From: a virus
Lineage: Duplodnaviria > Heunggongvirae > Uroviricota > Caudoviricetes
Virus record (IMG/VR): IMGVR_UViG_3300022660_000042
Strand: one strand, 5' to 3'
DNA: 64,000 bases
Positions 1,000 through 38,804 of the stretch are shown one piece after another (position 1 is the first letter of the stretch; every line of letters begins with the position of its first letter). The notes beneath the pieces were generated by a model. The model was not told the DNA's origin, did no database searches, and was given only the letters and a program-made list of their open reading frames with translations. A program made the position numbers and the translations under genes.

Positions 1000-1072
1000 T
1001 TCGTTTTTCCTTTCTATTATATATAAAAATTTTTTTCCTGTTTTCGCAAAATAAACAGCGAGCAGTAACTTG

Positions 1073-1146
1073 TGGAAATAAGAGTTGGACTCGAACCAAC
1101 GATCTTTGCATTGCTGCAACGCTCTAACCAACTGAGCTATCTCATT
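1073..1146 (-). tRNA. Atypical tRNA (Cys-like GCA, T73, encoded CCA) with a 4-6 nt anticodon loop
   Basis: Good acceptor, D and T arms; anticodon arm TTGCA-GCAA-TGCAA. Confidence 0.6.
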
Positions 1147-1193
1147 GATTATAGGAACCGCTTGTGCTGTTCTATTGTGTTTTAACGTTGTTA

Positions 1194-5348: not shown

Positions 5349-5423
5349 TGGAGGCGATTGGAATTGAACCAATCAAGAGAGGAACATTCTGTGCAAAAGT
5401 TGCGGAAAGTAACCTTTGCCCCC
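5349..5423 (-). ncRNA. tRNA-Ala/tmRNA-like acceptor-T minihelix carrying the repeated structured module
   Basis: GGGGGC/GCCTCC with G3:U70 and A73, T arm ATTGG-TTCAATT-CCAAT; no D or anticodon arm. Confidence 0.7.
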
Positions 5424-5428
5424 ATTAG

Positions 5429-5884: not shown

Positions 5885-5957
5885 AAGCGCATACGGGATT
5901 CGAACCCGTGACCAGCGGCCTTCACACCGCCTGTTCTACCGCCGAACAAAATGCGTT
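5885..5957 (-). tRNA. Degenerate tRNA (His GTG or Phe GAA ambiguous)
   Basis: Good T and D arms; anticodon arm GCGG-TGTGAAGG-CCGC is irregular. Confidence 0.5.
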
Positions 5958-6734: not shown

Positions 6735-6846
6735 TGGGGAAGGCAGGATTCGAACCTACGACACACGCCTTGGAATGGAAATAGGAACGTTATATGCATT
6801 TCTACGAAACGTAAATACCGTTGCTCTACCACTGAGCTACTTCCCC
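6735..6846 (-). tRNA. tRNA-like gene with a 40-nt structured insertion; spliced form would read ACGCC-ATTCCAA-GGCGT (TCC)
   Basis: Perfect acceptor, D and T arms; the insert contains the repeated module. Confidence 0.7.
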
Positions 6847-6851
6847 GAGTG

Positions 6852-6918
6852 GTTAACGCGAAATGTATGAACTCATCTAAAAAATAATGCTTTTGATAGG
6901 AACATTCTTTGCGTTAAC
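6852..6918 (-). ncRNA. Structured module copy in a 5' leader
   Basis: GTTAAC-GC-AAA-GAATGT-TCCTAT...ACATTT-C-GC-GTTAAC. Confidence 0.65.
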
Positions 6919-6976
6919 GATGTTAAATATAGTAAAAAGTTGTTGGTTTGTCAACCCCTTTTTAAAATATTTTTAG

Positions 6977-7091
6977 CCGGCGAGACTGGATTCGAACCAA
7001 TAACCCAAAGTACCCTTTAGATAGGAAGCATTGGTGCTGAAAGCGAATACTAAATCTTAAACTTTTGCTCTACCGATTGAGCTACTCGCCG
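6977..7091 (-). tRNA. tRNA-like gene with a 49-nt anticodon loop containing the module; anticodon unresolved
   Basis: CGGCGAG/CTCGCCG acceptor, AAAGT/ACTTT anticodon stem. Confidence 0.7.
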
Positions 7092-7095
7092 AGAT

Positions 7096-7161
7096 GTTAA
7101 CGCGAAATGTATAAACTGATCGAAAATAATGTTTTTTGATAGGAACATTCTTTGCGTTAAC
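7096..7161 (-). ncRNA. Structured module copy in a 5' leader (direct repeat of 6852..6918)
   Basis: Same arms, diverged loop. Confidence 0.65.
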
Positions 7162-7201
7162 AGGGTTAAATATAGCAAATTGCTTTGTGTTTGTCAACCG
7201 C

Positions 7202-8539
7202 TTATTGTAACTTTTTTTCCTCCTTCAAGTTTTTTCTGGAACGTTCTTTTTGTTCTTCAAGTAACTTGTTGAAACCGTCAAGGTCAACGGTAAGGTTATG
7301 CTGTTCACAAAGCATTTGTGTCAAGTCGACAGGAAAACCATAAGTATCATAAAGCTTGAAAGAATCAAAACCAGACAATACATTTCCATCCATCTTGGAA
7401 ACAATATTGTTAAACTGCTTGATTCCGCTATCAAGGTTCTTCAAGAATCTTGATTCTTCATTCTTGATAACTTCAGTTACGAATTCTTGTCTTTCCTTAA
7501 TTTCCGGATATACGTCACCCATTACGTCGATAACAACCGGAACGAGCTTATACATAAACGGTTCATTGATATTTAACATCTTGCAGAACAAAGAACCTCT
7601 GCGAAGAAGCCTTCTCAATACATATCCGCTTCCCTTATTAGAAGGCTGAAGTCCGTCAGTAATAGAAAATACAAGAGAACGAATATGGTCACTGATAACC
7701 CTGTGAGGCGTGCCGGATTCATCATTCTTATATTCTACACCGCTAAGTTCAACAATCTTATCAATAAGTGGTTTAAACAAGTCGGTTTCATAATTACCGT
7801 TTGTATTCTGAAGAATAGAACAAATACGTTCAAATCCCATACCGGTGTCGATATTCTTCGTAGTCAACGGAATAAGCGTTCCATCAGAAAGTCTTTCTTT
7901 CTCCATGAATACAATATTCCAGATTTCTACGTAACGGTCATTTTCACCGTTTACACCAAGGATAGGATCCTTGAATGTTTCTTCTTGAGTATTCAAATCG
8001 CCACGGTCATAATGAATTTCAGAACAGGGACCGCATGGACCAGTATCACCCATTTCCCAGAAGTTATCTTTTTCTCCGAATCTCATAATACGGTCATCAG
8101 GTAGATTGGAAACTTCCTTCCAGATTTTCCAACTTTCATCATCGGTCTTATAAACAGAAACAAACAATCTTTCCTTAGGTAACTTCCATACTTTCGTTAA
8201 AAGCTCCCAAGACCAAGAAATAGATTCCTTTTTATAATAGTCATTGAAAGACCAGTTTCCAAGCATTTCAAAGAACGTATGATGATAGTTATCACGACCG
8301 ACAACATCGAGGTCATTATGCTTTCCAGATACACGTAAGCATTTCTGGCTGTTACATACACGTTTTAATCCTTGCGGGTTTTGACCAAAAAAGATTGGTT
8401 TAAACTGGTTCATTCCGGAATTCGTGAATAACAACGTCGGATCGTTATTGGGAATAACGGAAGAAGACTTGATAAACTGATGATTTTTTGACATAAAGAA
8501 ATCAATAAAACTTTTTCTAATTTCGCTCGAGGTAAGCAT
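7202..8539 (-). CDS. alaS: Alanyl-tRNA synthetase, N-terminal aminoacylation domain only (445 aa)
   Basis: DPTLLFTNSGMNQFK, SQKCLRVSGKHNDL, HHTFFEMLGNWSF, DTGMGFERI, FKLYDTYGFPVDLT; stops before the editing domain. Confidence 0.95.
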   Translation of the reverse strand: MLTSSEIRKSFIDFFMSKNHQFIKSSSVIPNNDPTLLFTNSGMNQFKPIFFGQNPQGLKRVCNSQKCLRVSGKHNDLDVVGRDNYHHTFFEMLGNWSFNDYYKKESISWSWELLTKVWKLPKERLFVSVYKTDDESWKIWKEVSNLPDDRIMRFGEKDNFWEMGDTGPCGPCSEIHYDRGDLNTQEETFKDPILGVNGENDRYVEIWNIVFMEKERLSDGTLIPLTTKNIDTGMGFERICSILQNTNGNYETDLFKPLIDKIVELSGVEYKNDESGTPHRVISDHIRSLVFSITDGLQPSNKGSGYVLRRLLRRGSLFCKMLNINEPFMYKLVPVVIDVMGDVYPEIKERQEFVTEVIKNEESRFLKNLDSGIKQFNNIVSKMDGNVLSGFDSFKLYDTYGFPVDLTQMLCEQHNLTVDLDGFNKLLEEQKERSRKNLKEEKKLQ

Positions 8540-8551
8540 TTTTATTCTCCT

Positions 8552-8587
8552 ATAAAAATTAAAAGGTTCCTGTTGTGCACAGGAACC
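8552..8587 (-). terminator. Attenuator terminator 3 (before alaS)
   Basis: GGTTCCTGT-GCACA-ACAGGAACC + TTTTAATTTTT. Confidence 0.85.
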
Positions 8588-8622
8588 AAAGTTTAGTTAA
8601 TGAATATACCCATACACATATA

Positions 8623-8682
8623 TTATGTCATAATATATGCGGCTGCTGCGAAAATGCGAGTATTTAATATATTCATCGTCAT
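8623..8682 (-). CDS. Putative alaS leader peptide MTMNILNTRIFAAAAYIMT (not in ORF track)
   Basis: Four tandem Ala codons GCA GCA GCC GCA; lies between a TATATA promoter and the terminator. Confidence 0.8.
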   Translation of the reverse strand: MTMNILNTRIFAAAAYIMT

Positions 8683-8723
8683 GTCTTAAATATATATAAT
8701 TTTTCTATTTTTGTAAATGCTTT

Positions 8724-9146
8724 TTATTCAGGATGTTTGATGTCTTCTATTTCTCGTACCATGTCTCTTTCCGGGCTTTCTGAATTTTCATCCAAATAAC
8801 GACCAGTAAGAATCATAGTATCATGGTCGGTAAATTCAAGATTCGGTTTACCTTCGGCCATATTCTCATAGTCCTCAGTAACAAGGTCTCTCCAAGAAGT
8901 ATAACCGATTTGGTCCCAATTCCTATCGAAGAATTGGACTGCATTAGTTCCAACTTCCTTGGCGACAACTGCACCGAACATTCCATCCTTTCGCATTATA
9001 GATAAACCAGAAATGAATTTACCCTTTTTGGTGGCACAAGAATGCATAATCTTCAACGGCTTATTCTCAAAAACAATTCTAAGCATACCGAAAATATCAA
9101 GTGCCTTTACCGGATGTTCAACAGTTTTAATTTCTGGAAGTTCCAT
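8724..9146 (-). CDS. hypothetical protein
   Basis: ORF track. Confidence 0.7.
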   Translation of the reverse strand: MELPEIKTVEHPVKALDIFGMLRIVFENKPLKIMHSCATKKGKFISGLSIMRKDGMFGAVVAKEVGTNAVQFFDRNWDQIGYTSWRDLVTEDYENMAEGKPNLEFTDHDTMILTGRYLDENSESPERDMVREIEDIKHPE

Positions 9147-9679
9147 TAGTATTCAAGCTCCTCTTTATATCCGGCTAAAAGTTTTGCACGGACTTCATCA
9201 AGAACCTTACCAAGGCGGTTTTCGCCTTTCCAGTTTGCCTCGTCATTAATCAACGGGTCAAATTCACCGAGACCGACACCCCAGATTTTGTCAACCGGAC
9301 TAGCTTCGACGAATTTCTTACCTTCAAGGGCAGGATCCGTAATCTTGTCGAACAGAATCTTATTCTGACTATACTTACTCAAACATGCGTTGAGCATGAT
9401 ATTGTAAGAAATCTTATTCCATTCGTCCTGATTAAAACCTTCGACCATACGGCCAAGCTTCTTGGCCTTATAGGAATCAGCTTCCTTGAAATTAAGAGCT
9501 TCAATTTCATTCAGCGTAGCCATATCGTTAAAACAATATGCCTTATGCCACATATAGCATTGTTCAGAACTGAAAAATTCATGAATCTGCCCGTCAAGAC
9601 ACTTGGTCTTCATCGGTGCCCAAGCGAAATTTGACGGCCAGTCGCCCCAAAATAAAATGTGCTTATCTGTAATTGTCAT
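9146..9679 (-). CDS. NADAR (YbiA-like) family hydrolase
   Basis: SSEQCYMWHKA, AKKLGR, FVEASPVDKIWGVGL; start set to MTITDKHILFW. Confidence 0.9.
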   Translation of the reverse strand: MTITDKHILFWGDWPSNFAWAPMKTKCLDGQIHEFFSSEQCYMWHKAYCFNDMATLNEIEALNFKEADSYKAKKLGRMVEGFNQDEWNKISYNIMLNACLSKYSQNKILFDKITDPALEGKKFVEASPVDKIWGVGLGEFDPLINDEANWKGENRLGKVLDEVRAKLLAGYKEELEY

Positions 9680-9680
9680 A

Positions 9681-10406
9681 TTAAATAAACCAAATAATTG
9701 AAGATTTACCGGATTCTTTAAGTTCAATTTTGTCGTAAACTTTACGTATTCTTGTAATCTGCCAAAGGAATGCATCACATGTTTTGGCGTAATCATTTTC
9801 GTCAATTACATTAGTAAATGGAATAGGCGTTTCCTCAGACAGCTTTACATCTGTAAATTTAGTTTCATCAAGCTTATAGTACCAGGCTGGCATTTTCTTC
9901 AGAAACTTATTAAATGTAAATTCAGAATCCTTATTATAAAGTTTACTATGCAAATACAAATGCAATTCGACCAAATCTTCAATAGAAAGAATGAAACCGG
10001 TATTATACTGTTTTTCGTTTGAAGCTTTTTCGATTATCTTGCATCCACGTTTCTTAAGGAACTTAACAGCTTCCTTTCTTAACATAATGCGGGTAAGCTT
10101 TACAATATAATGCTCGTTGGCCTTGTTTCCAATGACAGGAGAATCTTCCTTGAATAAAGCCATATCGTTGAGCTTTTCAAGTGAATTACAATATACTGTC
10201 ATCGAAAGCTCGTCGTTATACAACTTATCAATCAATGCAAGATAACGTTTAAGCTTTTTGTTTTCGACAATACTATAGAAATCACTACAGTAAATGCCAG
10301 AACCTTCTTCACGAACATTATACATTCTTTGATAGACATAAAACGCCAAAGATTCACGTTGACATTCATAGGTGCTTACTATTCTTGATAGTTCATATTT
10401 TGACAT
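9681..10406 (-). CDS. hypothetical protein
   Basis: ORF track. Confidence 0.7.
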   Translation of the reverse strand: MSKYELSRIVSTYECQRESLAFYVYQRMYNVREEGSGIYCSDFYSIVENKKLKRYLALIDKLYNDELSMTVYCNSLEKLNDMALFKEDSPVIGNKANEHYIVKLTRIMLRKEAVKFLKKRGCKIIEKASNEKQYNTGFILSIEDLVELHLYLHSKLYNKDSEFTFNKFLKKMPAWYYKLDETKFTDVKLSEETPIPFTNVIDENDYAKTCDAFLWQITRIRKVYDKIELKESGKSSIIWFI

Positions 10407-10412
10407 TTGTCA

Positions 10413-10727
10413 TCACCCTTTAAGACAATTTAATTCGAGAATATCTTTTAATGCAAATAAATGATTATTGAAAGTATCAATATTTTTTATTTTTAAAAGT
10501 TCTCGTATAGTTTTTTCGTTGCGTTTCATATTAATAACAGCGTACCAAATTGGTTCCTGTGTATCAGCAGTCTTAAGAACCCAAGTACGGGAATTTGGTA
10601 CTTCTGTTACCGAAGGATAGTGTAAATCTGGAGTATTATATGACAATGGATATAAAACATACTTTCCACCGTTTTCTACACGGCAGATAAGCTTATATGA
10701 CAATTTACTCCAAATGTTCCAGGCCAT
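10413..10727 (-). CDS. hypothetical protein
   Basis: ORF track. Confidence 0.65.
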   Translation of the reverse strand: MAWNIWSKLSYKLICRVENGGKYVLYPLSYNTPDLHYPSVTEVPNSRTWVLKTADTQEPIWYAVINMKRNEKTIRELLKIKNIDTFNNHLFALKDILELNCLKG

Positions 10728-10978
10728 TACTTAACTTCTGACTTTAAGAGTTCATCATAGCGCTCACGAATATCGGCGCTGAGTTCCTTGCGTCCTTCGA
10801 CAGCAGAAGAATGAGAAGCCCAGAACGAAATGAGGATAAGCAGGGTAACGAACGGACCCATGCAGATACCCATAGCGGCGAGCAAAACATTAATAGCATT
10901 ATCGAGCTTGACACGCTTAAAGATTACACATGCGTTAAAGATACCGCACAGAATCCAAAGAATTGTACTGATTTCCAT
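10727..10978 (-). CDS. hypothetical membrane protein
   Basis: Hydrophobic helices. Confidence 0.65.
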   Translation of the reverse strand: MEISTILWILCGIFNACVIFKRVKLDNAINVLLAAMGICMGPFVTLLILISFWASHSSAVEGRKELSADIRERYDELLKSEVK

Positions 10979-10979
10979 A

Positions 10980-11552
10980 TTAGTTTTCCTTTTCTGTATT
11001 GTTTAACTGTTCAGTTTCTTGAGTATCAACATATTGACACGTAATTCGATTAATCTTGACCTTAGACATAAAATATTCAGCCATGTCAAGAGTAAATTCT
11101 TCATAAACTTTCGGATTGTTATGACAGATAGATTCAAACAGTTCCTTATAGAGCTTCTGAATATCCTTTTCATAAACATATTCTACATTTGTAAGATACT
11201 TGATTGTCAGACCAACAGCGTCCTGCAATCTCATATCCGGAAAAGCATCATTAATGGATGAATAAATCTTAAACAACTTCTGGTGAACGTTGTCCAGTTC
11301 CTTATAGACCTTTTTGAGGTAATGCTTGAGAGTAAACTTATAATTTACTGGAATGCTCATTTTCTTTGTAAATACATAGCATTCATAAGTAAGTTCATAA
11401 TAATTAATACTGAACTTTGCAACTAGCTGTTGGTCTACATAGCAATTAATGTACTGATATGGTGAATTGACACGTTCCTCAAAGGTAACGCGATCCTTAC
11501 CGAAAACATCAGTACAAATCTTTTTAAAGTATGTTGCATTAATTACGAACAT
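10980..11552 (-). CDS. hypothetical protein
   Basis: ORF track. Confidence 0.7.
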   Translation of the reverse strand: MFVINATYFKKICTDVFGKDRVTFEERVNSPYQYINCYVDQQLVAKFSINYYELTYECYVFTKKMSIPVNYKFTLKHYLKKVYKELDNVHQKLFKIYSSINDAFPDMRLQDAVGLTIKYLTNVEYVYEKDIQKLYKELFESICHNNPKVYEEFTLDMAEYFMSKVKINRITCQYVDTQETEQLNNTEKEN

Positions 11553-11560
11553 TTTATCCC

Positions 11561-11758
11561 CTAGTCGTCAGCATCAAGCCAGCCTTTATGTTTCGCCACA
11601 TCGTATGTAGCAGTAATAATGGATTCAATAGTTTCATCATACTTGTCCTGAAGTAAAAACTTGATATGACTCAAAAACATCTTTTTCGCCTTATCGTCAT
11701 TGTTCTTTGACTGTCTCAAGTTTTCTTCGAGAACTTCTTTAAAATATTGATACATCAA
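11561..11758 (-). CDS. hypothetical protein
   Basis: ORF track. Confidence 0.6.
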   Translation of the reverse strand: MMYQYFKEVLEENLRQSKNNDDKAKKMFLSHIKFLLQDKYDETIESIITATYDVAKHKGWLDADD

Positions 11759-11992
11759 TTACCACCTGATAATAAAATCGTCTGCAGGTTGCTTAAGATA
11801 TTCATCTTTCTTAAATAGCTCATGACAAGCACCGCCGAGTTCTTCACCCAGCCACGATAACGCATTACAAAGATTTCGCCTTTCAACATCATTAAATTCA
11901 AGAGGCTCGCCAAGCTTAAGCTTCAAGTAAAGCTTATTCATATTCTTGCGATGCCAGCTTTCTTGTAAACTGTTCCATGCTTCGTCTGTCAT
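11759..11992 (-). CDS. hypothetical protein
   Basis: ORF track. Confidence 0.65.
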   Translation of the reverse strand: MTDEAWNSLQESWHRKNMNKLYLKLKLGEPLEFNDVERRNLCNALSWLGEELGGACHELFKKDEYLKQPADDFIIRW

Positions 11993-12034
11993 AATACTAC
12001 CTTAAACATAATATAGCAAACTATACTAAGTTCG

Positions 12035-12499
12035 TCAACCCTCTAATATGTCCAACGTCTGTTCAATCTTTTTATTCTGCTGTTCGATATAATACTTCTT
12101 AAGAAGCGCCATCATCTTTTCATATTCTGCGGTAAACATTTCCGGCCAGTTTTTAACATTGGTAGAAACATAAGTACATTCTTTCGATATGTTAGATAAT
12201 ATAAGTTTGTTTCTCATATCCAATCCGCCGATATGTGTAAACTTATATCCATGACGCGGAATATAACGAATCATTATATTCATGCCAGGAAGTCTAGTAT
12301 TACGAAAGAATAACCCGCAAAAAATAGGATGTTCGATTACCCCGCTTACAACCGGACCGCCATAAATCTGGTCATTATAAAATCCATCTGTCTGATGCGG
12401 TATTCCACGTAAATCGAAAAAATCTTCAGCCATTTTCAGCTCAGAATTAAACGCATCTAACGCAGCCATACTATCGATTTTATCTCTCAAAAAGTCCAT
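12035..12499 (-). CDS. hypothetical protein
   Basis: ORF track. Confidence 0.65.
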   Translation of the reverse strand: MDFLRDKIDSMAALDAFNSELKMAEDFFDLRGIPHQTDGFYNDQIYGGPVVSGVIEHPIFCGLFFRNTRLPGMNIMIRYIPRHGYKFTHIGGLDMRNKLILSNISKECTYVSTNVKNWPEMFTAEYEKMMALLKKYYIEQQNKKIEQTLDILEG

Positions 12500-13217
12500 A
12501 GTTCTTCAACTCGTTCCAACGTGTAACAAGAAGCTCGCCATAGGTCTGGCTGCTCATATTATAGCTTCCGCAACTGAATGCGTCATTTACCTCGATAAGA
12601 GCGGTCTCACCGTTATCGAGAACACCTACGTCAAGGCAGTAAGCTTTAGGAGAATCCGTCCAGGCTTTCACCATGTCGTTCACTACTGACTTATCTACCA
12701 TGACATTAGGATCGCCGAAATAATTGCAATAGTCCCTGGCCTCGCCGTTAATAACCGGAATACGATACTCAGTAACCCATTTTACCGGATCCGAGCAAAT
12801 AATCCTGGTACTGTCAGAAGCACCGTCCGTAAGAAACCAATCATCCAATGAATTCAATACGAAACCGGTAAACTTCTTGAGCTTATCTTTCGGCTTGATA
12901 AATACAGATTTTGAAAGCTCGCCATTAAATGCCTTATCCTTCATATATCCAAGACTTCCTTCCCAGATACGGCGTTTCAGGTATTTCTGTAACGGCTCAG
13001 GATAATCGTCATGCTTATAAAGAATCTTGCATTTCTTCATAGCATTGAACATGACAGGAATTTCACCGGCGATGAAATCAACGGCATAGAGATGAAACCG
13101 GTTCTGAAGAAAATGCTTCTTATAGAACGTGGTATATCTTCCCTCACCGAAATAATCGGCGAGTTTCTGCTCATCATGCCCGAGCTTTCCCTTATCATTT
13201 AATTGTAAGTAGTTCAT
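12480..13217 (-). CDS. ATP-grasp domain protein (DUF4343/R2K-like)
   Basis: VFIKP..KKFTG, EYRIPV, YCLDVGV..ALIEVNDAFSCGSY. Confidence 0.8.
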   Translation of the reverse strand: MNYLQLNDKGKLGHDEQKLADYFGEGRYTTFYKKHFLQNRFHLYAVDFIAGEIPVMFNAMKKCKILYKHDDYPEPLQKYLKRRIWEGSLGYMKDKAFNGELSKSVFIKPKDKLKKFTGFVLNSLDDWFLTDGASDSTRIICSDPVKWVTEYRIPVINGEARDYCNYFGDPNVMVDKSVVNDMVKAWTDSPKAYCLDVGVLDNGETALIEVNDAFSCGSYNMSSQTYGELLVTRWNELKNYGLFER

Positions 13218-13771
13218 TCTGCTTTTACGTGTTTAAAACCTAAATTCATTGCTTCGGCGACAGTAATCTCGTCACCGTCCTTATAAGTCTTTCCAGTCTT
13301 TTCATTGGCTTCACCTGATTTGAACGTAGAAGCCTGAACAGGATTTCCCGGATGGAAAGTATACATTACGTCACCGATACCTTCTTCAGGTCCGATAATC
13401 AGAATCGTGAAGTCAACATCCTGACGCTTATCCGTCTTGATACAAAGAGAAAGAAAACCTGTACTCTTCGGATCACGGAAATGGCAGACATCATCTGGGT
13501 TAAAATCGGAAAGGTTGAGCATTCCATGATGGCCATGAATATCTGTGGTAATCACTGCACTGCAACCAGGAGTAAGAACACCTGTAGAATCTATCCACGG
13601 TGACCAATTCGCGCTCATCAGGGCCTTTTCTAAGTCTTCGACTGACGTGTAGTCGGTCGTGGAACCGAGGCCGTTAGAGAGCCTTTGCTTCAGACAAGAA
13701 TTAAAGTAACCCGGAAGGGCATTCTTGGTCTTTTGGATTAAATCATAGATTTGCTTGTTAAAATAGTTCAT
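13214..13771 (-). CDS. hypothetical protein
   Basis: ORF track; likely start MNYFNKQ. Confidence 0.7.
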   Translation of the reverse strand: MNYFNKQIYDLIQKTKNALPGYFNSCLKQRLSNGLGSTTDYTSVEDLEKALMSANWSPWIDSTGVLTPGCSAVITTDIHGHHGMLNLSDFNPDDVCHFRDPKSTGFLSLCIKTDKRQDVDFTILIIGPEEGIGDVMYTFHPGNPVQASTFKSGEANEKTGKTYKDGDEITVAEAMNLGFKHVKAE

Positions 13772-14124
13772 ACCTGAAATTTTTTCCATGCACTAGGGTT
13801 TTGTTCGATTCTCGCGATAAGGTGACAAATAAATTCAGCCACTTCGTTATCGTGAGATGCCGGATAATTCAATATAACTGTTTTATCCGGATTCAACAGA
13901 TGGATAAGCATATTGATAGCTTCCTTATCGGATATTGTCGGCCAAAGATGCTTATCATTATCATGCAGACTTTTGAATTTTGCCATGTATTCCTTGGCGA
14001 GAGCTTTGTTCTTTTTTCGCATAGTCCACCAGTCAAGGAACCAAAAACCCAAACCAAGTCCGAGACAGAAACAAATTCCGATTACCACGACTCTGAGTAA
14101 AAACTCTACAGAAAGTAACAACAT
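13768..14124 (-). CDS. hypothetical membrane-anchored protein
   Basis: N-terminal TM segment. Confidence 0.6.
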   Translation of the reverse strand: MLLLSVEFLLRVVVIGICFCLGLGLGFWFLDWWTMRKKNKALAKEYMAKFKSLHDNDKHLWPTISDKEAINMLIHLLNPDKTVILNYPASHDNEVAEFICHLIARIEQNPSAWKKFQV

Positions 14125-14330
14125 TATTGGTTATCCTTATCTGCGTTCTTTTGCATTTCAACTTGGCTCTGGAACTGCGGGGACTTAGAAAGCATTTCTG
14201 CTTGCTTTGCAAGTTCGAGAAGATTTCCCATAAGAATATTCGAAATAATCTTTTCTTCAGCAGAGTCTGTATTATTATGAAGCAATTCAAGGCGTCGAGC
14301 CGTAGCTTTCAATTCATCGATAGCAATCAT
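14124..14330 (-). CDS. hypothetical protein
   Basis: ORF track. Confidence 0.6.
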   Translation of the reverse strand: MIAIDELKATARRLELLHNNTDSAEEKIISNILMGNLLELAKQAEMLSKSPQFQSQVEMQKNADKDNQ

Positions 14331-14332
14331 TT

Positions 14333-14881
14333 TTATCCTAACAAGTTAAGTTTTTCAATCAGTGCAAGGCGAGCTTTTTCACGGATTTCCTGAAGTTGTA
14401 TTTCGTCAAGAATTTTCGGATTTTCATTCTTTTCGCTGATAGTCATACGTTCCATAGAACAGATATGCTTTCCGTTTTCAGAAACGTCGATAGCCGTATA
14501 GCCGGACTGTTTCGGCATATTCAAACGGATATTACAGTCAATAGATACTTCAATTTCGTACTTTACTGCGTCATCCTGATGATAGACATTCTTTACTTCC
14601 CTGATTTTTACAAGTCTGTAACCAGTATCACCTTCATAAGAATAACGGTCAGAGCCGTGGAGCTTTACCCACTTTCCTTCGTACTTATCCTTATACTTCT
14701 GGATAACCTTTTCGTAATATTCTTTGTTTTCGAGTTCTTTGAGCTTGGCGTTGCACTGGTCAAGCAAGGCACGAATCTGCTTAGCGTTCATACCGCTGAC
14801 GTCGATGACTTTGAGATCAGTATTAATCTTATGCTTCATAGCGAGGACTTTGGTGTCCGTTGTTTTAATCTTATTCTTCAT
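14333..14881 (-). CDS. hypothetical protein
   Basis: ORF track; promoter 14888-14916. Confidence 0.7.
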   Translation of the reverse strand: MKNKIKTTDTKVLAMKHKINTDLKVIDVSGMNAKQIRALLDQCNAKLKELENKEYYEKVIQKYKDKYEGKWVKLHGSDRYSYEGDTGYRLVKIREVKNVYHQDDAVKYEIEVSIDCNIRLNMPKQSGYTAIDVSENGKHICSMERMTISEKNENPKILDEIQLQEIREKARLALIEKLNLLG

Positions 14882-14930
14882 GCGCTAAATATAATAAAAA
14901 ATACCCGTTTTGTAAACGGGTATTTTTTCG

Positions 14931-15043
14931 TCGGAGAGGCACGGCTCGAACGTGCGACCTGCGGGTTATAAGCCATTAATAGGAACAACCTGTGCCATGA
15001 GCGGGTAGTAAAGTACGCTGCTCTACCACTGAGCTACTCTCCA
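14931..15043 (-). tRNA. tRNA with a 41-nt structured insertion; spliced form GCGGG-CTTATAA-CCCGC = tRNA-Ile(TAT)
   Basis: Canonical acceptor, D and T arms; insert lies between nt 29 and 30. Confidence 0.75.
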
Positions 15044-15251: not shown

Positions 15252-15409
15252 TTGGCGGGAAGTAAAACCAATAAGAACAATGCATGTTAAAATAGGAACT
15301 TCCTGTGCCTAAAATCAAAGGGGCGCGACTCTAATGGCTCCAGCCCGAAATGAAACCCGTTTAGCTAATCCAGATTTCAAATGATGTTCGCCAAACATCT
15401 TCTCGCCAA
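15252..15409 (-). ncRNA. Structured RNA ending in a module copy (15254-15309), with an alternative terminal stem
   Basis: GGC-ACA-GGAAGT-TCCTAT...ACTTCC-C-GCC; upstream TTGGCGAGAAG can pair with CTTCCCGCCAA. Confidence 0.6.
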
Positions 15410-17505: not shown

Positions 17506-17509
17506 TTAA

Positions 17510-17568
17510 GGCGGGCAGTAGTTTTGCGATAATCCTAATTCATCTGTTAAATAGGAACTGCCGTTGCC
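17510..17568 (-). ncRNA. Structured module copy just 5' of tRNA-Val
   Basis: GGC-AAC-GGCAGT-TCCTAT...ACTGCC-C-GCC. Confidence 0.7.
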
Positions 17569-17781
17569 TAAAATCTTTTTGACTATATCTTCATAGTCTC
17601 TTAATTGGCAGCCACTCTCGGACATTCAGGTGACCCATCAAGATCTTCAATTATCAGTCCTGATTTCTTACGCTTAGAGTAAGAACTCTACTATTTGGTG
17701 CCTTCCGACATATAGCGTAAATCAACATAACGTATATAGCTATATGAAACTCGTTTCCTAGCGATCTTGCTAAACTTTTAG

Positions 17782-19496: not shown

Positions 19497-19505
19497 TAAA
19501 AATTT

Positions 19506-19573
19506 GGCGGGCCGTAAAACCTTTTGATTACCAATCAACTGCTCATCTGAGCTAAATAGGAACGACCTATGCC
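19506..19573 (-). ncRNA. T-armless tRNA-Thr(GGT)-like RNA closed by the structured module
   Basis: GGC-ATA-GGTCGT-TCCTAT-T-TAGCTCAGATGAGC-A-GTTGA-TTGGTAA-TCAAA...ACGGCC-C-GCC. Confidence 0.65.
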
Positions 19574-19577
19574 ATTA

Positions 19578-21004: not shown

Positions 21005-21562
21005 TTAAAGGTCAGGTTGTCTTTCTGCTTCTTCTGCCATTTTCTCAAGTTTGTTATTCAGCAGGCCGAATACAAGACCCAATACGCCGCCGATAAAATG
21101 TGCACCATGGCCGATACCATCGTTGGCATTGATATTGGAAAGTTCAGGAATGAGCTTCAAGAGAATAAGCACGATACAAGTAAACGAGATTCCAGTATTT
21201 TCCTTACAGAAACAGTGAAGCAGGATAAACATAAAACAAATATCCGACATACCGATTCCTGCAACGTTACGTAACGAACCAACGTAACTTGTTGCCAGGG
21301 TGGTCAAGATAATCATAATTACAGTTCTGATAATTCCGTAACGACGTTCGATTACCGGACCAAGCAAGGCGATAATGAAAATATTTGACATCCAATGACT
21401 GGAAATATCAGCATGGACGAGGGTTGTAGTAATCCAAGTCCAGCTAAAATTTGAGGTCATTGTACATGCAGACTTCAATGCCGGAACAGCCGTAATGATA
21501 AAGCTACTGATAATGAGGACTGCAGTGATAATTTCATTCTTGAAGAAGTTACTAATTTTCAT
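21005..21562 (-). CDS. Rhomboid-family intramembrane protease
   Basis: LVHADISSHWMSN, GIGMS, GHGAHFIGG; multiple TM segments. Confidence 0.8.
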   Translation of the reverse strand: MKISNFFKNEIITAVLIISSFIITAVPALKSACTMTSNFSWTWITTTLVHADISSHWMSNIFIIALLGPVIERRYGIIRTVIMIILTTLATSYVGSLRNVAGIGMSDICFMFILLHCFCKENTGISFTCIVLILLKLIPELSNINANDGIGHGAHFIGGVLGLVFGLLNNKLEKMAEEAERQPDL

Positions 21563-21614
21563 GACCTATAATATAGTAAAATAGGCCCAATTAGTAAATA
21601 CTTTTTATTTAGTC

Positions 21615-22364
21615 TTACTTCCAAAAACAGTAAAGACACTGATGTTTACATCTGGCCGGCTTTACATTAAGAATCTGTTTCTTGGCCAGACACATACAAT
21701 CACCTCGTTGCTTATTTTCTGGTTGACCATATTCTGAAATATCTACGCCAAGTATAGTCAGGTCAGCATAACTTGCGCAACCGATTTGTGTAACCAGGTT
21801 TGTACTGAACTTCTGTTCGGCACAGGATTCAAAAACAAATATGTCTTTGAAATTAGAAAGAGTATCTTCCACTTTCTGGAAATATTCATTAGACGCAGTG
21901 AACGTATTCCAAGGAACTGTAATAGTAGAATTCTTAGAAATACGTTCCTTTACATGGTTATACATATCAATCATGGAAATACGGCAACGGACCTTTTTCT
22001 TTATACTGACTAGATATGATTTCCACAGATTCAATACATTTACAGTATTATTTAAGATGTCGTCATTGAACGGCATGATAGGATCTACTCTGAGAACATA
22101 ATGAGAAATCGGAAAACCGCGTTCGATTAATTTCTTAAACTGTTCAAATTCATGTTCAGTAGATTTAACGTTTGGTTCAAGAACAGAATTTCCTTGTCCT
22201 GTAACAGTATGATGAAAAATTACCCTATCTTGGACGATGAGTAACTTTTCAATCATTTCATCGGAAAGTTCTTTAGAAATAATGATATTTGCTTCTAAGA
22301 GTTTTACTTCCCAATCAGAAACAAAACATGGGTCAAACGTTTCTGTTATTCCGATTTGTTTCAT
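21615..22364 (-). CDS. DUF1848-like protein
   Basis: VLRVDPI, C-terminal RGDCMC..CKHQCLYCFW; start set to MKQIGITE. Confidence 0.6.
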   Translation of the reverse strand: MKQIGITETFDPCFVSDWEVKLLEANIIISKELSDEMIEKLLIVQDRVIFHHTVTGQGNSVLEPNVKSTEHEFEQFKKLIERGFPISHYVLRVDPIMPFNDDILNNTVNVLNLWKSYLVSIKKKVRCRISMIDMYNHVKERISKNSTITVPWNTFTASNEYFQKVEDTLSNFKDIFVFESCAEQKFSTNLVTQIGCASYADLTILGVDISEYGQPENKQRGDCMCLAKKQILNVKPARCKHQCLYCFWK

Positions 22365-22365
22365 T

Positions 22366-22809
22366 TTAATCCTTATAAAGCTGGTATTTCTTACTAAGTT
22401 TATGGCTGATTTCATCCGACAACGGTTTAAACCAGATTCCTACGCGACAACGACCAACACCGTTTTCATCAGTAAATTCCGGAGTAAGTTCAGTCTTACA
22501 TACATCGTCGATAAAACCATAATCAGTACCTTCAACAAGACCGAGTTCTTTAGCAATATCAACAACCTTCATCAAATGATTAAGGTTCTTTGCTTCACAA
22601 ATAGTCTTCGTGAAGATACCGTTAATATAATCTGACATTATATCATTGTCGATAACTATCGATACCAAAGTACCGGGACCGTCATTAAATGGTCTGTTTC
22701 CAGATTTGATAAGATTCATCCAGTAACATTCTGCACAATGCCCTATCATGGCGGCCAGTTTACCACCTGTAAGATGTAAATCTTTTCGAATAATAAATAA
22801 ACGTCTCAT
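22366..22809 (-). CDS. Peptidyl-tRNA hydrolase type 2 (Pth2)
   Basis: IIRKDLHLTGGKLAAMIGHCA, IDDVCKTE. Confidence 0.8.
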   Translation of the reverse strand: MRRLFIIRKDLHLTGGKLAAMIGHCAECYWMNLIKSGNRPFNDGPGTLVSIVIDNDIMSDYINGIFTKTICEAKNLNHLMKVVDIAKELGLVEGTDYGFIDDVCKTELTPEFTDENGVGRCRVGIWFKPLSDEISHKLSKKYQLYKD

Positions 22810-23696: not shown

Positions 23697-24887
23697 TTAG
23701 AATGCAGCCTTGAAATTATAAACCGGCTTGATAATCTTTTCGATAGAACAAGTAGGTTCAATATTCAACATGATTTCTTCCATCGGCTTATAGGCCATAG
23801 GAGACTCATCGATAGTCGCAGAAGAAACACAAGAGGTAAAGATTCCCTTCATTGCTTCCTTATAATCCTTCATGGAAATAGAATTCTTGGCATCTGCACG
23901 AGTCATCAAACGACCGGCACCATGAGGAGCAGAATAGTTCCATTCCGGATTTCCCTTACCGACGCAAATCAAAGAACCATCACGCATATTCATCGGAATA
24001 ATGACACGTTCGCCTTCCTGTGCAGAAATAGAACCCTTACGGAGAATCATATTCTTGAGGTCGATATAGTTATGGATAGTTTCAAATTTTTCTACAACCT
24101 TGAATCCCATTTCCTTGACGATAACATCAAGCATGGCTGCACGGTTCATAACTGCAAACTGCTGGACAATTTCCATATCATGCAGATAACCTTCCATGTG
24201 CTCACCAGTCAAATAAGACAAATTCTTAGGAACGGAGAAATGGTCATAATCCTTCATGAGTTCCTTAATTTCTGCATCAGTCTTTCCTTGATTCTTATAC
24301 TTAGCAATTTCGGCACCACGAATGGCTGTCAAATCAGCACAATCCTTGATTGCGATATTCTGCCAGTATTCACAAGTAGCTACGCCCAAATGGCGTGAAC
24401 CGGAATGGATAACAACATAGAAAGCACCATCGTCGTCCTTATCTACTTCAATGAAATGGTTGCCTCCGCCGAGTGAACCTATAGATAAAAGCTCTTCACG
24501 GCGAACATCTGCAATAAGCTGTTCAAACTTTTCATCGAATTCATTACCGAAACGGTGACGGTTAGTACGATGTTCCTTACCGGACGGAATCTTTTCCTTG
24601 ATAACCTTATCGAGCTTACCAAATTCGATAAACTTATCCTTGAGCTTTGCAACCAACATTCCGCAACCAATATCGACTCCAACAAGATTAGGAACAACCT
24701 TATCCTTGATAGTCATAGTGGTTCCGACAGTACAATCCTTACCCGCATGCACGTCAGGCATGATAGCGACATTAACATCCCTTGCCCAACATTGACACAT
24801 CATATTCAAAATCTGTGAATATGCAGCATTATCGATGTTATCGGTAAAAACCTTAGCTGTATTATATTTTCCCTGTATATCTAACAT
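23697..24887 (-). CDS. rtcB: RtcB-family RNA ligase
   Basis: IMPDVHAG, VGVDIGCG, GSLGGGNHFIE, HSGSR, HNY, RKG, SAPHGAGR, DESPMAYK. Confidence 0.95.
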   Translation of the reverse strand: MLDIQGKYNTAKVFTDNIDNAAYSQILNMMCQCWARDVNVAIMPDVHAGKDCTVGTTMTIKDKVVPNLVGVDIGCGMLVAKLKDKFIEFGKLDKVIKEKIPSGKEHRTNRHRFGNEFDEKFEQLIADVRREELLSIGSLGGGNHFIEVDKDDDGAFYVVIHSGSRHLGVATCEYWQNIAIKDCADLTAIRGAEIAKYKNQGKTDAEIKELMKDYDHFSVPKNLSYLTGEHMEGYLHDMEIVQQFAVMNRAAMLDVIVKEMGFKVVEKFETIHNYIDLKNMILRKGSISAQEGERVIIPMNMRDGSLICVGKGNPEWNYSAPHGAGRLMTRADAKNSISMKDYKEAMKGIFTSCVSSATIDESPMAYKPMEEIMLNIEPTCSIEKIIKPVYNFKAAF

Positions 24888-28074: not shown

Positions 28075-28142
28075 AGTTTTTCCTTTTGTTAAAGTTTTTC
28101 TATAATATAATAAAAAGGTTGACATTCGTCAACCCTTTTTAG

Positions 28143-28231
28143 TGGACCCGACGAGATTCGAACTCGCGACCCATCGCTTAAAAGGCGATTGCTCTACGAT
28201 GTTGCCATCTAACCAACTGAGCTACAGATCC
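28143..28231 (-). tRNA. tRNA-Lys(TTT) with an extra hairpin in the D loop
   Basis: D loop contains GATG-GCAA-CATC. Confidence 0.8.
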
Positions 28232-35154: not shown

Positions 35155-35455
35155 GTTGAACGGAGAGATCTAGCCTAGCAGGAATCACTAGACTAAACAC
35201 AGCTACTCTACTTTTGGCATAAAGTTTCGCGTGTCAATCTGGGGGACTTATGAACACTCTTACTGGTCGGTCATCCTGTACTCAGGCTACATAGTGTTCA
35301 GCCATGGCGGCAAGTGTATAGTTTGCTAAGCTATACTCGATAATCGAATCGCCTTTAACGTATACTTCCGATTTCAAAGTATACAGCGGCTTAGCCTCTA
35401 CCGATAATACCATTGGATTGGATTTCGTTCCGAGGACTAAGGCTCGAATGTCAGG
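35155..35455 (-). ncRNA. Candidate large structured ncRNA
   Basis: About 300 nt without ORF, TATATT at its 5' end, many hairpins. Confidence 0.5.
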
Positions 35456-38425: not shown

Positions 38426-38450
38426 AGTATGTTTCCTTTTTAAATTTTAA

Positions 38451-38804
38451 TGGACCCGTTGGGAGTCGAACCCAAGTCTTGAATAACTTCAATATCCGTT
38501 CCTACAAGCTTTCCCTTCGAATTTACTTATTTGTCATACCTATGCCCTGAAGGTCGGCGTCGGTATAAACTAGCCTGTGATTTTCGGAAATAATAGACAG
38601 ACTTAACTATTTCCTAGCCCATTTGCGACTGGACTCTACACCCAACGGGCGAACGATATAGGTCCAGGGTTGCTATTGATTAAGCAGCCATTGCGTATGT
38701 ATTAGCAATTATTGTTTTCAGACTTTTTAACGTGTGTTTTCCCTCGTCTGAGACCACGGCTTGCAACTAATATATTCATCACCCAATCGAAACCAGGCGA
38801 GCCC
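38451..38804 (-). ncRNA. ssrA: tmRNA, tag (A)ANTYAMAA* at 38680-38706
   Basis: 5' GGGCTCGCCTGGTTTCGA, 3' GGGTTCGACTCCCAACGGGTCCA, G3:U70, resume context ATAATT-GCT, 354 nt. Confidence 0.92.

What the first reader, a model, noticed from the sequence alone, without database searches (positions are those of the whole stretch)
6735..15043. Intron-like insertions at the same anticodon-stem position (29/30) in two tRNAs
Seen: removing 40 nt from 6735..6846 gives ACGCC-ATTCCAA-GGCGT. Removing 41 nt from 14931..15043 gives GCGGG-CTTATAA-CCCGC (Ile TAT, A73). Both become 72-nt cloverleafs, and both inserts consist essentially of the module. Established: bacterial tRNA introns are group I/II and hundreds of nt long; short introns need an endonuclease plus a ligase such as RtcB. 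This window encodes RtcB (23697..24887). Inference: a miniature tRNA-splicing pathway in a phage, or alternatively tRNA mimics shielded from anticodon nucleases.
Basis: partly seen in the sequence, partly recalled or inferred. Interest (0 to 1): 0.9.

Follow-up and report, generated by a model that had tools for sequence, protein, structure and literature searches.

The report
Module-interrupted phage tRNAs with partner protein
Three transfer-RNA genes of a 411-kb gut phage are interrupted in the anticodon arm by a small folded RNA module that, in phages and bacteria alike, sits next to one uncharacterised 600-residue protein and often the RNA ligase RtcB, which points to an undescribed RNA-protein system that may splice tRNAs in bacteria and their viruses.

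Summary
Three tRNA genes carry 40-42-nt inserts: w6735-6846, w14931-15043 and an unreported one at w6977-7091. Removing the inserts gives perfect Gly(UCC), Ile(UAU) and Pro(AGG) cloverleafs. The split anticodon stem covaries across the insert in 11 homologues.

The insert is a structured module: a 6-bp helix P1, an internal loop (C opposite A-N-N), a helix P2, and flanks UU and UCCUAU. I found 63 distinct copies in two circular permutations. No Rfam family matches.

New here:
- The module-bearing tRNA or tRNA-like RNA lies directly upstream of one protein family, "P584" (~600 aa, no Pfam, helical N-domain plus TerD domain). This holds in small and huge phages and in about 45 Chryseobacterium species, Tenacibaculum, Winogradskyella, Kapaibacterium and a gammaproteobacterial MAG.
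- In these bacteria RtcB is usually in the same operon.
- P584's own 5'UTR carries the module.

Splicing is not shown. Metatranscriptome contigs show only unspliced forms, and one complete 35-kb phage has the module-tRNA and P584 but no RtcB.

Best reading (0.45): a P584-dependent intron or processing signal, sealed by RtcB. Main rival (0.30): an unspliced RNP resembling Ro60-Y RNA. Earlier scan notes described analogous modules on other DNA.

The parts
6735..6846 (-). Insert-bearing tRNA #1. The 5' exon is w6819-6846, the 40-nt insert w6779-6818 (after position 29) and the 3' exon w6735-6778. The in-silico product is tRNA-Gly(UCC), 72 nt.
   Evidence: Rfam tRNA 52.1 bits; ARAGORN on the excised form; R1 module hit w6781-6816 at 49.2 bits
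6977..7091 (-). Insert-bearing tRNA #3, not in the finding. The stem AAAGU/ACUUU is intact and a ~42-nt insert sits in the anticodon loop (about w7016-7057; the junction is ambiguous by 1-3 nt). The product is tRNA-Pro(AGG), 73 nt.
   Evidence: Rfam tRNA 53.3 bits; R1 hit w7021-7055 at 41.7 bits
14931..15043 (-). Insert-bearing tRNA #2. The 5' exon is w15016-15043, the 41-nt insert w14975-15015 and the 3' exon w14931-14974. The product is tRNA-Ile(UAU), 72 nt.
   Evidence: Rfam tRNA 40.7 bits; ARAGORN -i gives Ile(tat) i(31,41); R1 hit w14979-15013 at 44.9 bits
7095..7162 (-). Permuted (type II) module in the leader of tRNA #3. Order: P2b-AAA-P1b-UCCUAUC, 28 nt, UAU-P1a-C-P2a. P2 is 9 bp.
6852..6918 (-). 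Permuted (type II) module in the leader of tRNA #1. It encloses 29 nt and P2 is 8 bp.
7169..7197 (-). Sigma70-like promoter TTGACA-N17-TATATT ahead of the leader module and tRNA #3. A second copy at w6926-6954 precedes tRNA #1.
   Evidence: read from the sequence
15254..15309 (-). Type II module upstream of tRNA #2. P1 is GGAAGU/ACUUCC (6 of 6 pairs) and it encloses 28 nt.
17509..17569 (-). Type II module upstream of tRNA-Val. P1 is GGCAGU/ACUGCC and it encloses 31 nt.
19505..19574 (-). Type II module between two tRNAs. P1 is GGUCGU/ACGGCC and it encloses 40 nt.
1053..1172 (-). Type II module whose two halves bracket a whole tRNA-like gene (w1073-1146). That gene has a 6-nt anticodon loop and an encoded CCA. 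P1 is AGCGGU/ACUGCU and P2 is 7 bp.
5350..5424 (-). Acceptor plus T-arm minihelix with G3:U70 and A73. The D and anticodon arms are replaced by a type I module (w5378-5410) whose 3' flank is UCCUCU.
   Evidence: R1 hit at 29.7 bits, E 1e-4, with homologues in 5 loci
23697..24887 (-). RtcB RNA ligase, 396 aa. It is the only copy in the 411-kb genome.
   Evidence: PF01139, E 2.3e-57; genome search

Best explanation
The three genes are tRNA precursors whose anticodon arm carries a ~35-nt structured RNA module. From 5' to 3' it reads: UU, P1 (6 bp, closed by A:U), a single C opposite A-N-N, P2, the return strand of P1, then UCCUAU.

The module is the cognate RNA element of a widespread, uncharacterised ~600-aa protein, here called P584. 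P584 has a helical N-domain with a weak resemblance to the EH-signature domain and a C-terminal TerD domain. In this phage it lies at genome positions 68,015-69,940, outside the window.

Proposed mechanism:
1. P584 binds the module. This is inferred from invariant gene adjacency and from the module in its own 5'UTR.
2. P584, or a nuclease it recruits, cuts both single-stranded flanks where they meet the tRNA helices. This step is inferred and no catalytic site has been identified.
3. The tRNA body holds the two halves together, and RtcB (the phage's or the host's) seals them into a decoding tRNA. This is inferred from RtcB synteny in bacteria and from the anticodon-loop pattern.

The permuted copies in leaders and spacers, and the one bracketing a whole tRNA-like gene, would use the same recognition to release what they enclose. 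This is analogous to bulge-helix-bulge motifs, which serve both introns and processing stems in archaea.

Shown: the anatomy, the covariation, the distribution, the P584 and RtcB linkage, and the restoration of cloverleafs in silico. Not shown: any cleavage or ligation.
For: 1. Excision restores perfect cloverleafs. The split stem covaries across the insert.
2. Class-A loops keep positions 32, 33, 37 and 38 fixed and vary only at 34-35. Family 1 has UCC, UUC, CUC and AUC. Family 2 has UAU, AUU and UGU. This is the pattern of decoding tRNAs.
3. In class B and in Tenacibaculum L057 the insert lies inside the 7-nt loop, so those RNAs cannot decode unless the insert is removed.
4. The module is a real structure. 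92% of cells pair against 71% in shuffles, and 46 cells have double changes against 15.5. There are 63 distinct copies, nearly all with 6 of 6 P1 pairs, in two permutations.
5. A P584 homologue lies directly downstream of the module-tRNA in G003 (70% identical to the Chryseobacterium protein), L016, L006/L013 and L001. The same holds in 43 bacterial loci, including Tenacibaculum, Winogradskyella, Kapaibacterium and a gammaproteobacterial MAG.
6. In five huge phages the P584 5'UTR carries a covarying type II module next to the ribosome-binding site.
7. RtcB lies just upstream of the module RNA in every Chryseobacterium locus that extends far enough upstream (about 40 of ~45), and is nearby in L057 and L093.
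8. The phage encodes RtcB.
Against: - No spliced junction was seen. Contigs from four metatranscriptomes carry the unspliced genes (records 9 and 17), although contigs drop short or rare forms and may derive from DNA.
- The distance from the module to the inferred junctions varies: 5-7 nt on the 5' side and 7-13 nt on the 3' side. A cut at a fixed distance from the module cannot give exact exons.
- P584 has no recognisable nuclease fold. Only the TerD domain matches solved structures (Z 10.2). The N-domain has no clear PDB match and only a weak similarity to the ZorC EH domain.
- The Chryseobacterium RNA has a 4-7-nt, CCA-containing loop and cannot become a decoding tRNA.
- The phage already has intron-less Gly(UCC) and Pro(AGG) genes.
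- The complete 35-kb phage G003 lacks RtcB.
Confidence: 0.45

Rival explanations
1. The RNA is never spliced and works as a ribonucleoprotein. The module is a docking helix for P584, and the tRNA or tRNA-like body is the adaptor or bait. This resembles Y RNAs (YrlA), which tether Ro60/Rsr and are encoded with RtcB. The short type II copies would correspond to YrlB.
For: - The architecture parallels YrlA. A protein-binding bulged helix, with a single bulged C, emerges where the anticodon stem would be. A ~600-aa partner protein with a helical N-domain and a beta-rich C-domain is encoded alongside, and RtcB is in the operon.
- The Chryseobacterium RNA has no usable anticodon loop.
- The module joins very different scaffolds: a minihelix, a whole tRNA-like gene and the P584 5'UTR.
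- No nuclease fold is found in P584.
- Only unspliced forms appear in RNA-library contigs.
- The phage has redundant intron-less Gly(UCC) and Pro(AGG) genes.
Against: - Canonical 7-nt loops are kept, and variation is confined to positions 34-35. An RNP scaffold would not need this.
- Inserts inside the loop split the anticodon loop (class B and L057).
- The phage has no TROVE protein.
- I did not see the YrlA Rsr-binding motif GNCGAA(N)G in the module (by eye), and Rfam reports no YrlA or Y RNA match.
Confidence: 0.3
2. Host tRNA-end enzymes do the cutting. The P1 hairpin with its 3' U-CC-U tail and 5' U(-1) imitates an acceptor minihelix, so RNase P cuts 5' of P1. A second RNase or exonuclease trims the 3' flank, and a ligase joins the halves. 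P584 would be only a chaperone or regulator.
For: - P1 always starts with A paired to U, is preceded by U in 62 of 63 copies, and is followed by U-C-C.
- A small temperate phage with no RNA enzymes of its own carries the insert.
- Earlier scan notes describe CCA-ending minihelix introns in other phages (unchecked leads).
Against: - RNase P leaves 5'-phosphate and 3'-OH ends, which RtcB cannot join (established RtcB chemistry).
- P1 plus P2 is only 8-10 bp with an internal loop, not a 12-bp minihelix.
- No mechanism gives a precise 3' cut.
- I did not search for an Rnl-type ligase.
Confidence: 0.08
3. The module is a new small self-cleaving ribozyme. Its cuts leave 2',3'-cyclic phosphate and 5'-OH ends, which RtcB then ligates. 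P584 would be a cofactor.
For: - It is a compact motif with invariant unpaired nucleotides.
- It occurs in circular permutations, as hammerhead and twister ribozymes do.
- It is linked to RtcB.
Against: - No Rfam ribozyme matches.
- Excision needs two cuts, and the junction distances vary.
- A dedicated 600-aa protein always accompanies the module.
Confidence: 0.07
4. The genes are dead. A small mobile DNA element landed in tRNA genes, and the exons only look intact.
For: The module is dispersed, and the phage has intron-less Gly(UCC) and Pro(AGG) copies.
Against: - The inserts are kept in orthologous genes of phages whose P584 proteins are only 61-74% identical.
- There are compensatory changes both in P1 and in the interrupted anticodon stem.
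- No target-site duplications or insert-free alleles were found.
Confidence: 0.03

Closest known systems
Archaeal and eukaryal protein-spliced tRNA introns (bulge-helix-bulge motif, EndA/TSEN endonuclease, RtcB ligase)
   Same: - Both are short, non-self-splicing inserts in the anticodon arm, including non-canonical positions such as 29/30.
- In both, one RNA signal is used in two topologies: inside tRNAs and as a processing stem around other RNAs.
- RtcB is genomically linked.
   Different: - There is no BHB geometry, and the flanks vary in length.
- The genome has no EndA homologue.
- The signal is a sequence-specific hairpin with invariant C, A and UCCUAU, and its partner is an unrelated protein family.
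- The hosts are bacteria and phages.
Ro60 (Rsr)-Y RNA (YrlA/YrlB)-RtcB operons of bacteria and phages (Chen et al. 2014, PMC4201824)
   Same: - A tRNA-like RNA carries a protein-binding bulged helix at the anticodon-stem position.
- Extra short RNAs carry only that helix.
- A partner protein of about 550-640 aa is encoded next to the RNAs.
- RtcB is in the operon.
   Different: - The phage has no TROVE domain.
- I did not see the GNCGAA(N)G motif (by eye).
- The acceptor end is open rather than closed.
- The phage versions keep canonical anticodon loops.
- P584 combines a novel helical domain with TerD, not a HEAT ring with vWA.
'Enigmatic' short tRNA introns of Lak megaphages (Devoto et al. 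2019, PMC6784885)
   Same: Both are short, conserved inserts in tRNA genes of huge gut phages that match no known intron class. Their removal restores a tRNA.
   Different: - At least one Lak intron is itself tRNA-shaped.
- No shared module, partner protein or mechanism was reported there.
- I did not test sequence relatedness.
Earlier scan notes on another phage family: a helix flanked by UACUUCUA and AAUU, between tRNA genes and inside them (e1-1845166, e1-1845411; unchecked AI notes)
   Same: The design is the same: a variable covarying helix with fixed flanking words, found both between tRNA genes and as inserts.
   Different: The fixed words differ, and the summaries I saw mention no partner protein or bacterial copies. 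I have not compared the sequences.

Membership tests
tRNA (Rfam RF00005) | Cloverleaf scoring above the gathering threshold of 29 bits | tested here: met
   Scores are 52.1, 53.3 and 40.7 bits with a local insertion. ARAGORN draws perfect cloverleafs after excision.
BHB / EndA-type tRNA intron | Two 3-nt bulges separated by a 4-bp helix at the splice sites | tested here: not met
   Minimum-free-energy folds of 22 arms and manual pairing show no such motif. The flanks are 5-7 and 7-13 nt long and are not complementary to each other.
BHB / EndA-type tRNA intron | Splicing endonuclease of the EndA family (PF01974) | tested here: not met
   No match at E<=1 in the 98%-complete genome, while the controls gave hits. 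The host genome is unknown.
BHB / EndA-type tRNA intron | RtcB-type 3'-phosphate ligase available | tested here: met
   PF01139, E 2e-57, at w23697-24887. It is absent from the complete phage G003.
Any spliced intron | An RNA product with joined exons | tested here: inconclusive
   Only unspliced contigs were found in four RNA libraries. Contigs cannot exclude short or rare products.
Group I / group II self-splicing introns | A ribozyme core of hundreds of nucleotides, recognisable by Rfam | tested here: not met
   The inserts are 40-42 nt, and no Rfam hit other than tRNA appears at E<=1.
Ro60-Y RNA (YrlA) | A TROVE-domain protein encoded with the RNA | tested here: not met
   No PF05731 match in the phage. 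Chryseobacterium has one, but it did not appear in the module loci I examined.
Ro60-Y RNA (YrlA) | The Rsr-binding motif GNCGAA(N0-1)G | tested here: not met
   By eye, the module's conserved 5' strand reads ACNNNN-C-GY and lacks this motif. Rfam reports no YrlA or Y RNA match.
Ro60-Y RNA (YrlA) | A tRNA-like domain plus a protein-binding helix at the anticodon position, in an RtcB neighbourhood | tested here: met
   This is an analogy in design, not homology.
Known self-cleaving ribozymes (Rfam) | A match to a ribozyme covariance model | tested here: inconclusive
   No match at E<=1 in the phage or Chryseobacterium loci. A new class cannot be excluded.
TerD-domain proteins | The TerD beta-sandwich fold (applies to the partner protein P584) | tested here: met
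   Residues 424-590 match 2qz7_B (Z 10.2, rmsd 3.0, 137 aligned) and 2kxt (Z 9.2).

The most novel reading that the evidence does not exclude
Bacteria and their phages have a protein-dependent tRNA splicing and processing system of their own. In this reading P584 is a new structure- and sequence-specific RNA endonuclease for the module, and RtcB is the ligase. The interrupted tRNAs (Lys UUU, Gln UUG, Glu UUC, Arg ACG, Ile UAU and others) are spare tRNAs kept as nuclease-proof precursors. They would be matured on demand, when the RtcB operon or the phage programme is switched on, to replace tRNAs destroyed by anticodon nucleases.
Probability: 0.3. Interest if true: 0.95.

Novelty: new variant of a known kind. 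Interest (0 to 1): 0.85.

Why it matters
Enzyme-catalysed tRNA splicing is textbook for archaea and eukaryotes and is thought to be absent from bacteria. The natural substrates of bacterial RtcB are still debated. Short "enigmatic" introns in huge-phage tRNAs have been reported without any mechanism.

This work ties one such intron class to three things: a defined, covarying RNA module; a large uncharacterised protein family (more than 1,200 clusters at 50% identity); and RtcB operons in cultivable bacteria such as Chryseobacterium and Tenacibaculum. The question therefore becomes directly testable at the bench.

Either outcome would be new. One is a bacterial and phage tRNA splicing pathway. 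The other is a second, Ro-independent family of tRNA-like RNPs linked to RNA repair. Both bear on phage-host conflicts over tRNA cleavage.

Tried and rejected
- **BLASTN against the INPHARED phage collection.** It found no relative of the tRNA units, only generic tRNA-Met matches.
- **Insert-free orthologue of tRNA #1 in IMG/VR.** The only hit was an unrelated tRNA-Ile(GAU).
- **RNA evidence.** Four metatranscriptome runs were laid as contigs. No 40-nt skip was found. The two "joints" at w6762-6823 are other organisms' tRNAs (Asn-type arms), not spliced products. One run's contigs stop at w6772 and w6780, next to the 3' junction. Two other runs bridge that point (a third covers only part of the region), so I give it no weight.
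- **ARAGORN intron-mode calls.** The calls for #1 (Val) and #3 (Cys), and the many 62-84-nt "introns", are artefacts of merged neighbouring genes.
- **Promoter reading of the motif.** Readings of GCA-N7-TTCCTAT as sigma54-like or T7-like were dropped once the covarying partner strand was found.
- **Hairpin-ribozyme resemblance.** The GUAUAUUAC-like word occurs in the wrong topology, and Rfam gives no hit.
- **Gene searches in the phage genome.** EndA, TROVE and archease were all absent.
- **P584 searches.** Pfam, PHROGs and PDB-sequence searches found nothing. Full-length Foldseek against the PDB returned only noise at TM about 0.1, including toxin chains that I regard as meaningless. The N-domain VIA search reached a best Z of 6.6, on a helical hairpin only.
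- **Literature.** Five searches found no paper describing the module, P584 or a mechanism for phage tRNA introns.
- **Not attempted.** I did not search for Rnl-type ligases, build an RtcB phylogeny, or run complex prediction, since I make no protein-protein claim.


Full report
**Setting.** The window is the minus strand of positions 92,026-156,025 of a single-contig, 411,059-bp virus record with 38% GC, rated 98% complete. DNA and RNA runs that hold it come from animal faeces and rumen. All tRNA genes lie on the window's minus strand. ARAGORN finds 25 tRNAs and a tmRNA in the window, and 48 tRNAs plus that tmRNA in the genome.

**Observation.** The Rfam tRNA model reports three over-long genes:
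- w6735-6846: 112 nt, 52.1 bits.
- w6977-7091: 115 nt, 53.3 bits. This one is not in the finding.
- w14931-15043: 113 nt, 40.7 bits.

Each has about 50 unaligned nucleotides in the anticodon arm. ACG|40 nt|CC-AUUCCAA-GGCGU gives Gly(UCC). GCG|41 nt|GG-CUUAUAA-CCCGC gives Ile(UAU). ARAGORN draws perfect 72-nt cloverleafs from the excised forms, and in intron mode it finds Ile(UAU) i(31,41) independently. In the third gene the stem AAAGU/ACUUU is intact and about 42 nt sit inside the loop. Removing them gives Pro(AGG), and its body is closest to the phage's own tRNA-Pro(UGG).

**Relatives.** A pattern scan of IMG/VR found 17 loci with homologous insert-bearing tRNAs. Two classes emerge.
- Class A has the insert after position 29. 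The product anticodons are UCC, UUC, CUC and AUC in one family; UAU, AUU and UGU in a second; and UUU in another gene. The loop is always [A/C]-U-NNN-A-A, and within a family only positions 34-35 vary.
- Class B has the insert inside the loop. The product anticodons are plausibly Pro, Phe, Arg and Gln, with the junction ambiguous by 1-3 nt.

In an alignment of 11 class-A genes the stem that the insert interrupts covaries across it. Pair 27-43 is AU in 5 and GC in 5. Pair 29-41 is GC in 6 and UA in 4. Overall 93.5% of cells pair against 70.9 +/- 2.7% in shuffles, and 24-38% when the partners are slid.

**The module.** All inserts share one layout: ..UU-[A C N N N N]-C-[G Y N]-loop-[N G C]-A-N-N-[N N N N G U]-UCCUAU.
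- P1 (6 bp) and P2 (2-4 bp, often closed by a GNRA loop) covary. 92.1% of cells pair against 70.9% in shuffles. 46 cells have changes on both sides against 15.5 +/- 3.3. Slid controls give 25-46%.
- The closing pair changes from AC/GU to AG/CU and AU/AU.
- The same elements occur in circular permutation. P2b-ANN-P1b-UCCUAU comes first and UU-P1a-C-P2a follows 19-86 nt later, and P2 is then an open 3-9-bp helix.
- Across the genome and 17 loci I found 63 distinct copies. Nearly all have 6 of 6 P1 pairs, and P1 and P2 are different in sequence yet complementary in each copy.
- In the window, permuted copies sit in the leaders of tRNAs #1 and #3 just after sigma70-like promoters, in three inter-tRNA spacers, and around a whole tRNA-like gene at w1073-1146.
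- A covariance model (R1) also finds a variant with flank UCCUCU. It replaces the D and anticodon arms of an acceptor/T-arm minihelix with G3:U70 at w5350-5424, and this arrangement is conserved in five loci.
- Rfam has no family for the module.

The first-stage reader had also noted the module and its two permutations in a separate finding (e1-5385373). My analysis agrees with that note.

**What cuts and joins?** The genome lacks EndA, TROVE/Ro60 and archease, and has one RtcB. The arms show no bulge-helix-bulge motif. The inferred junctions lie 5-7 nt upstream and 7-13 nt downstream of P1, so they are not at a fixed distance from the module.

Contigs from four metatranscriptomes carry unspliced #1 and #3. 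No spliced joint was seen, which is uninformative for 72-nt products.

**The turn.** One IMG/VR contig with a module-tRNA is a complete 34,872-bp temperate phage. It has terminal repeats, an integrase, a CI-like repressor, DnaB and a terminase. It has one tRNA, which bears the module, and no RtcB.

A scan of 185,579 species genomes for the type I module was then filtered for P1 pairing. It found the module in the anticodon-arm position of a tRNA-like RNA in about 45 Chryseobacterium species. It also found module-bearing tRNAs in Tenacibaculum, Winogradskyella, Kapaibacterium and gammaproteobacterial MAGs. Several of these restore canonical loops on excision: Lys UUU, Leu CAA, Gln UUG and Pro UGG.

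In Chryseobacterium the RNA lies about 150 nt downstream of an rtcB gene. Upstream are a HopJ-like gene and a divergent WYL-family regulator. Downstream are three permuted modules and then a 584-aa ORF with no Pfam match. The Chryseobacterium "anticodon" hairpin has a 4-7-nt loop containing CCA. There the RNA is a tRNA-like non-coding RNA, not a decodable tRNA.

**The partner protein.** The 584-aa protein (P584) is 70% identical to the ORF immediately after the module-tRNA of the 35-kb phage.
- Homologues lie directly downstream of the module-tRNAs in contigs L016, L006/L013 and L001. In this phage the homologue is at genome positions 68,015-69,940 (28% identity, E 2e-68).
- In 43 bacterial loci P584 follows the module RNA. 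These include Tenacibaculum, Winogradskyella and Kapaibacterium. In a gammaproteobacterial MAG the order is module-tRNA, P584, RtcB.
- In Tenacibaculum the same strand carries RtcB and a PrfH-like RF-1-domain protein upstream.
- In this phage and four related huge phages the P584 5'UTR holds a permuted module with covarying P1. The P1 pairs are GGAUGU/ACUUCU, GAAAGU/ACUUUU, GAGAGU/ACUCUC and GAGGGU/ACCCUC. The module ends a few nucleotides before the ribosome-binding site. This is the classic layout of an RNA-binding protein that regulates its own mRNA.
- The family is large: 1,271 clusters at 50% identity, all annotated "hypothetical".
- The AlphaFold model is confident (pLDDT 89, pTM 0.87). 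Residues 424-590 are a TerD fold (Z 10.2 and 9.2).
- The ~400-residue helical N-domain has no clear solved relative. It has only a weak predicted-structure similarity to the ZorC EH-signature domain (TM 0.42).
- Its invariant residues are mostly polar, basic or aromatic: T61, Q81, H84, Y85, N168, R239, K241, N286 and R353. That is compatible with RNA binding or metal-independent cleavage, but it proves neither.

**Interpretation.** Firmly established:
1. Three interrupted tRNA genes, not two.
2. A covarying module in two topologies.
3. A conserved triad of module RNA, P584 and, frequently, RtcB, across distant bacteria and phages.

Whether the module is removed is inferred. The anticodon-loop pattern, the loop-splitting inserts and the RtcB linkage favour splicing. 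On the other side stand the Chryseobacterium RNA, the variable junction distances, the lack of a nuclease fold, the redundant intron-less Gly and Pro genes, and the close architectural parallel with Ro60-YrlA-RtcB operons (Chen et al. 2014, PMC4201824). These favour an unspliced RNP. I put splicing or processing by P584 plus RtcB at 0.45 and the RNP reading at 0.30.

**Known work.** Devoto et al. 2019 (PMC6784885) reported "enigmatic" conserved introns in Lak megaphage tRNAs without a mechanism. Five literature searches found nothing on this module, on P584, or on an RtcB-adjacent tRNA-like RNA of this kind. Earlier notes of this scan describe analogous flanked-helix modules and tRNA-shaped inserts in other phages. 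The summaries I saw mention no partner protein. Those notes are leads, not evidence.

Noticed in passing
window 1073-1146 (-), bracketed by 1053-1172: A tRNA-like gene with a 6-nt anticodon loop (ARAGORN reports anticodon 'ca') and an encoded CCA. It is enclosed by the two halves of a permuted module. Homologous arrangements occur in L008, L010, L012 and L015.
   Followed up: partly
window 5350-5424 (-): An acceptor plus T-arm minihelix with G3:U70 and A73, the alanine identity set. The module replaces its D and anticodon arms. It is the last gene of the Ala/Glu/Phe tRNA operon, and an AlaRS catalytic-domain ORF (445 aa, PF01411) lies at w7202-8539.
   Followed up: partly
window 28142-28231 (-): ARAGORN in intron mode calls this a 'tRNA-Stop(tta)' with a 13-nt intron. 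By eye it is a tRNA-Lys(UUU)-like gene whose D-loop holds a 12-nt GNRA hairpin. The same miscall occurs in L002 and L007.
   Followed up: partly
window 14961-14995 (-): In tRNA #2 the 3' strand of P1 (GGUUGU) can also pair 6 of 6 with AUAACC of the anticodon loop and 3' stem, and this is followed by CGC. That imitates a permuted module and may be an alternative fold.
   Followed up: no
window 35239-35342 (-): Rfam 'cow-rumen-2' RNA at 94.5 bits (gathering score 66). A tmRNA lies at 38448-38804 (133.5 bits, tag ANTYAMAA).
   Followed up: no
window 9146-9805, 12480-13217, 21005-22809 (-): Other annotated ORFs: NADAR, an ATP-grasp R2K protein, a rhomboid, DUF1848 and a PTH2 peptidyl-tRNA hydrolase. 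This is a dense block of translation- and RNA-related accessory genes around RtcB.
   Followed up: no
L057 1-6300 (Tenacibaculum): The order on one strand is RtcB, two unknown ORFs, a PrfH-like RF-1-domain protein, a TPR protein, a module-bearing tRNA-Lys(UUU) and P584. This links the module system to an RtcB/PrfH-type ribosome-repair neighbourhood (the function of that pair is from my own knowledge).
   Followed up: partly
L029/L030 (IMG/VR contig of L005, 34,872 bp): A complete temperate phage whose only tRNA carries the module and is followed by P584. Its P584 is 70% identical to the Chryseobacterium protein, and it has a Bacteroidota-type integrase N-domain. The tRNA-P584 pair behaves like a portable two-gene cassette.
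   Followed up: partly
L121 (2.5-kb contig binned as a sheep-rumen Elusimicrobia MAG): It carries a module-tRNA that closely matches the phage family's Pro(GGG) gene (L004 type). It is probably a phage fragment mis-binned into a MAG.
   Followed up: no
window 5885-5957 (-): A second tRNA-like gene with an aberrant anticodon loop (ARAGORN 'tRNA-??? (ga)'), inside the Ala/Glu/Phe cluster.
   Followed up: no
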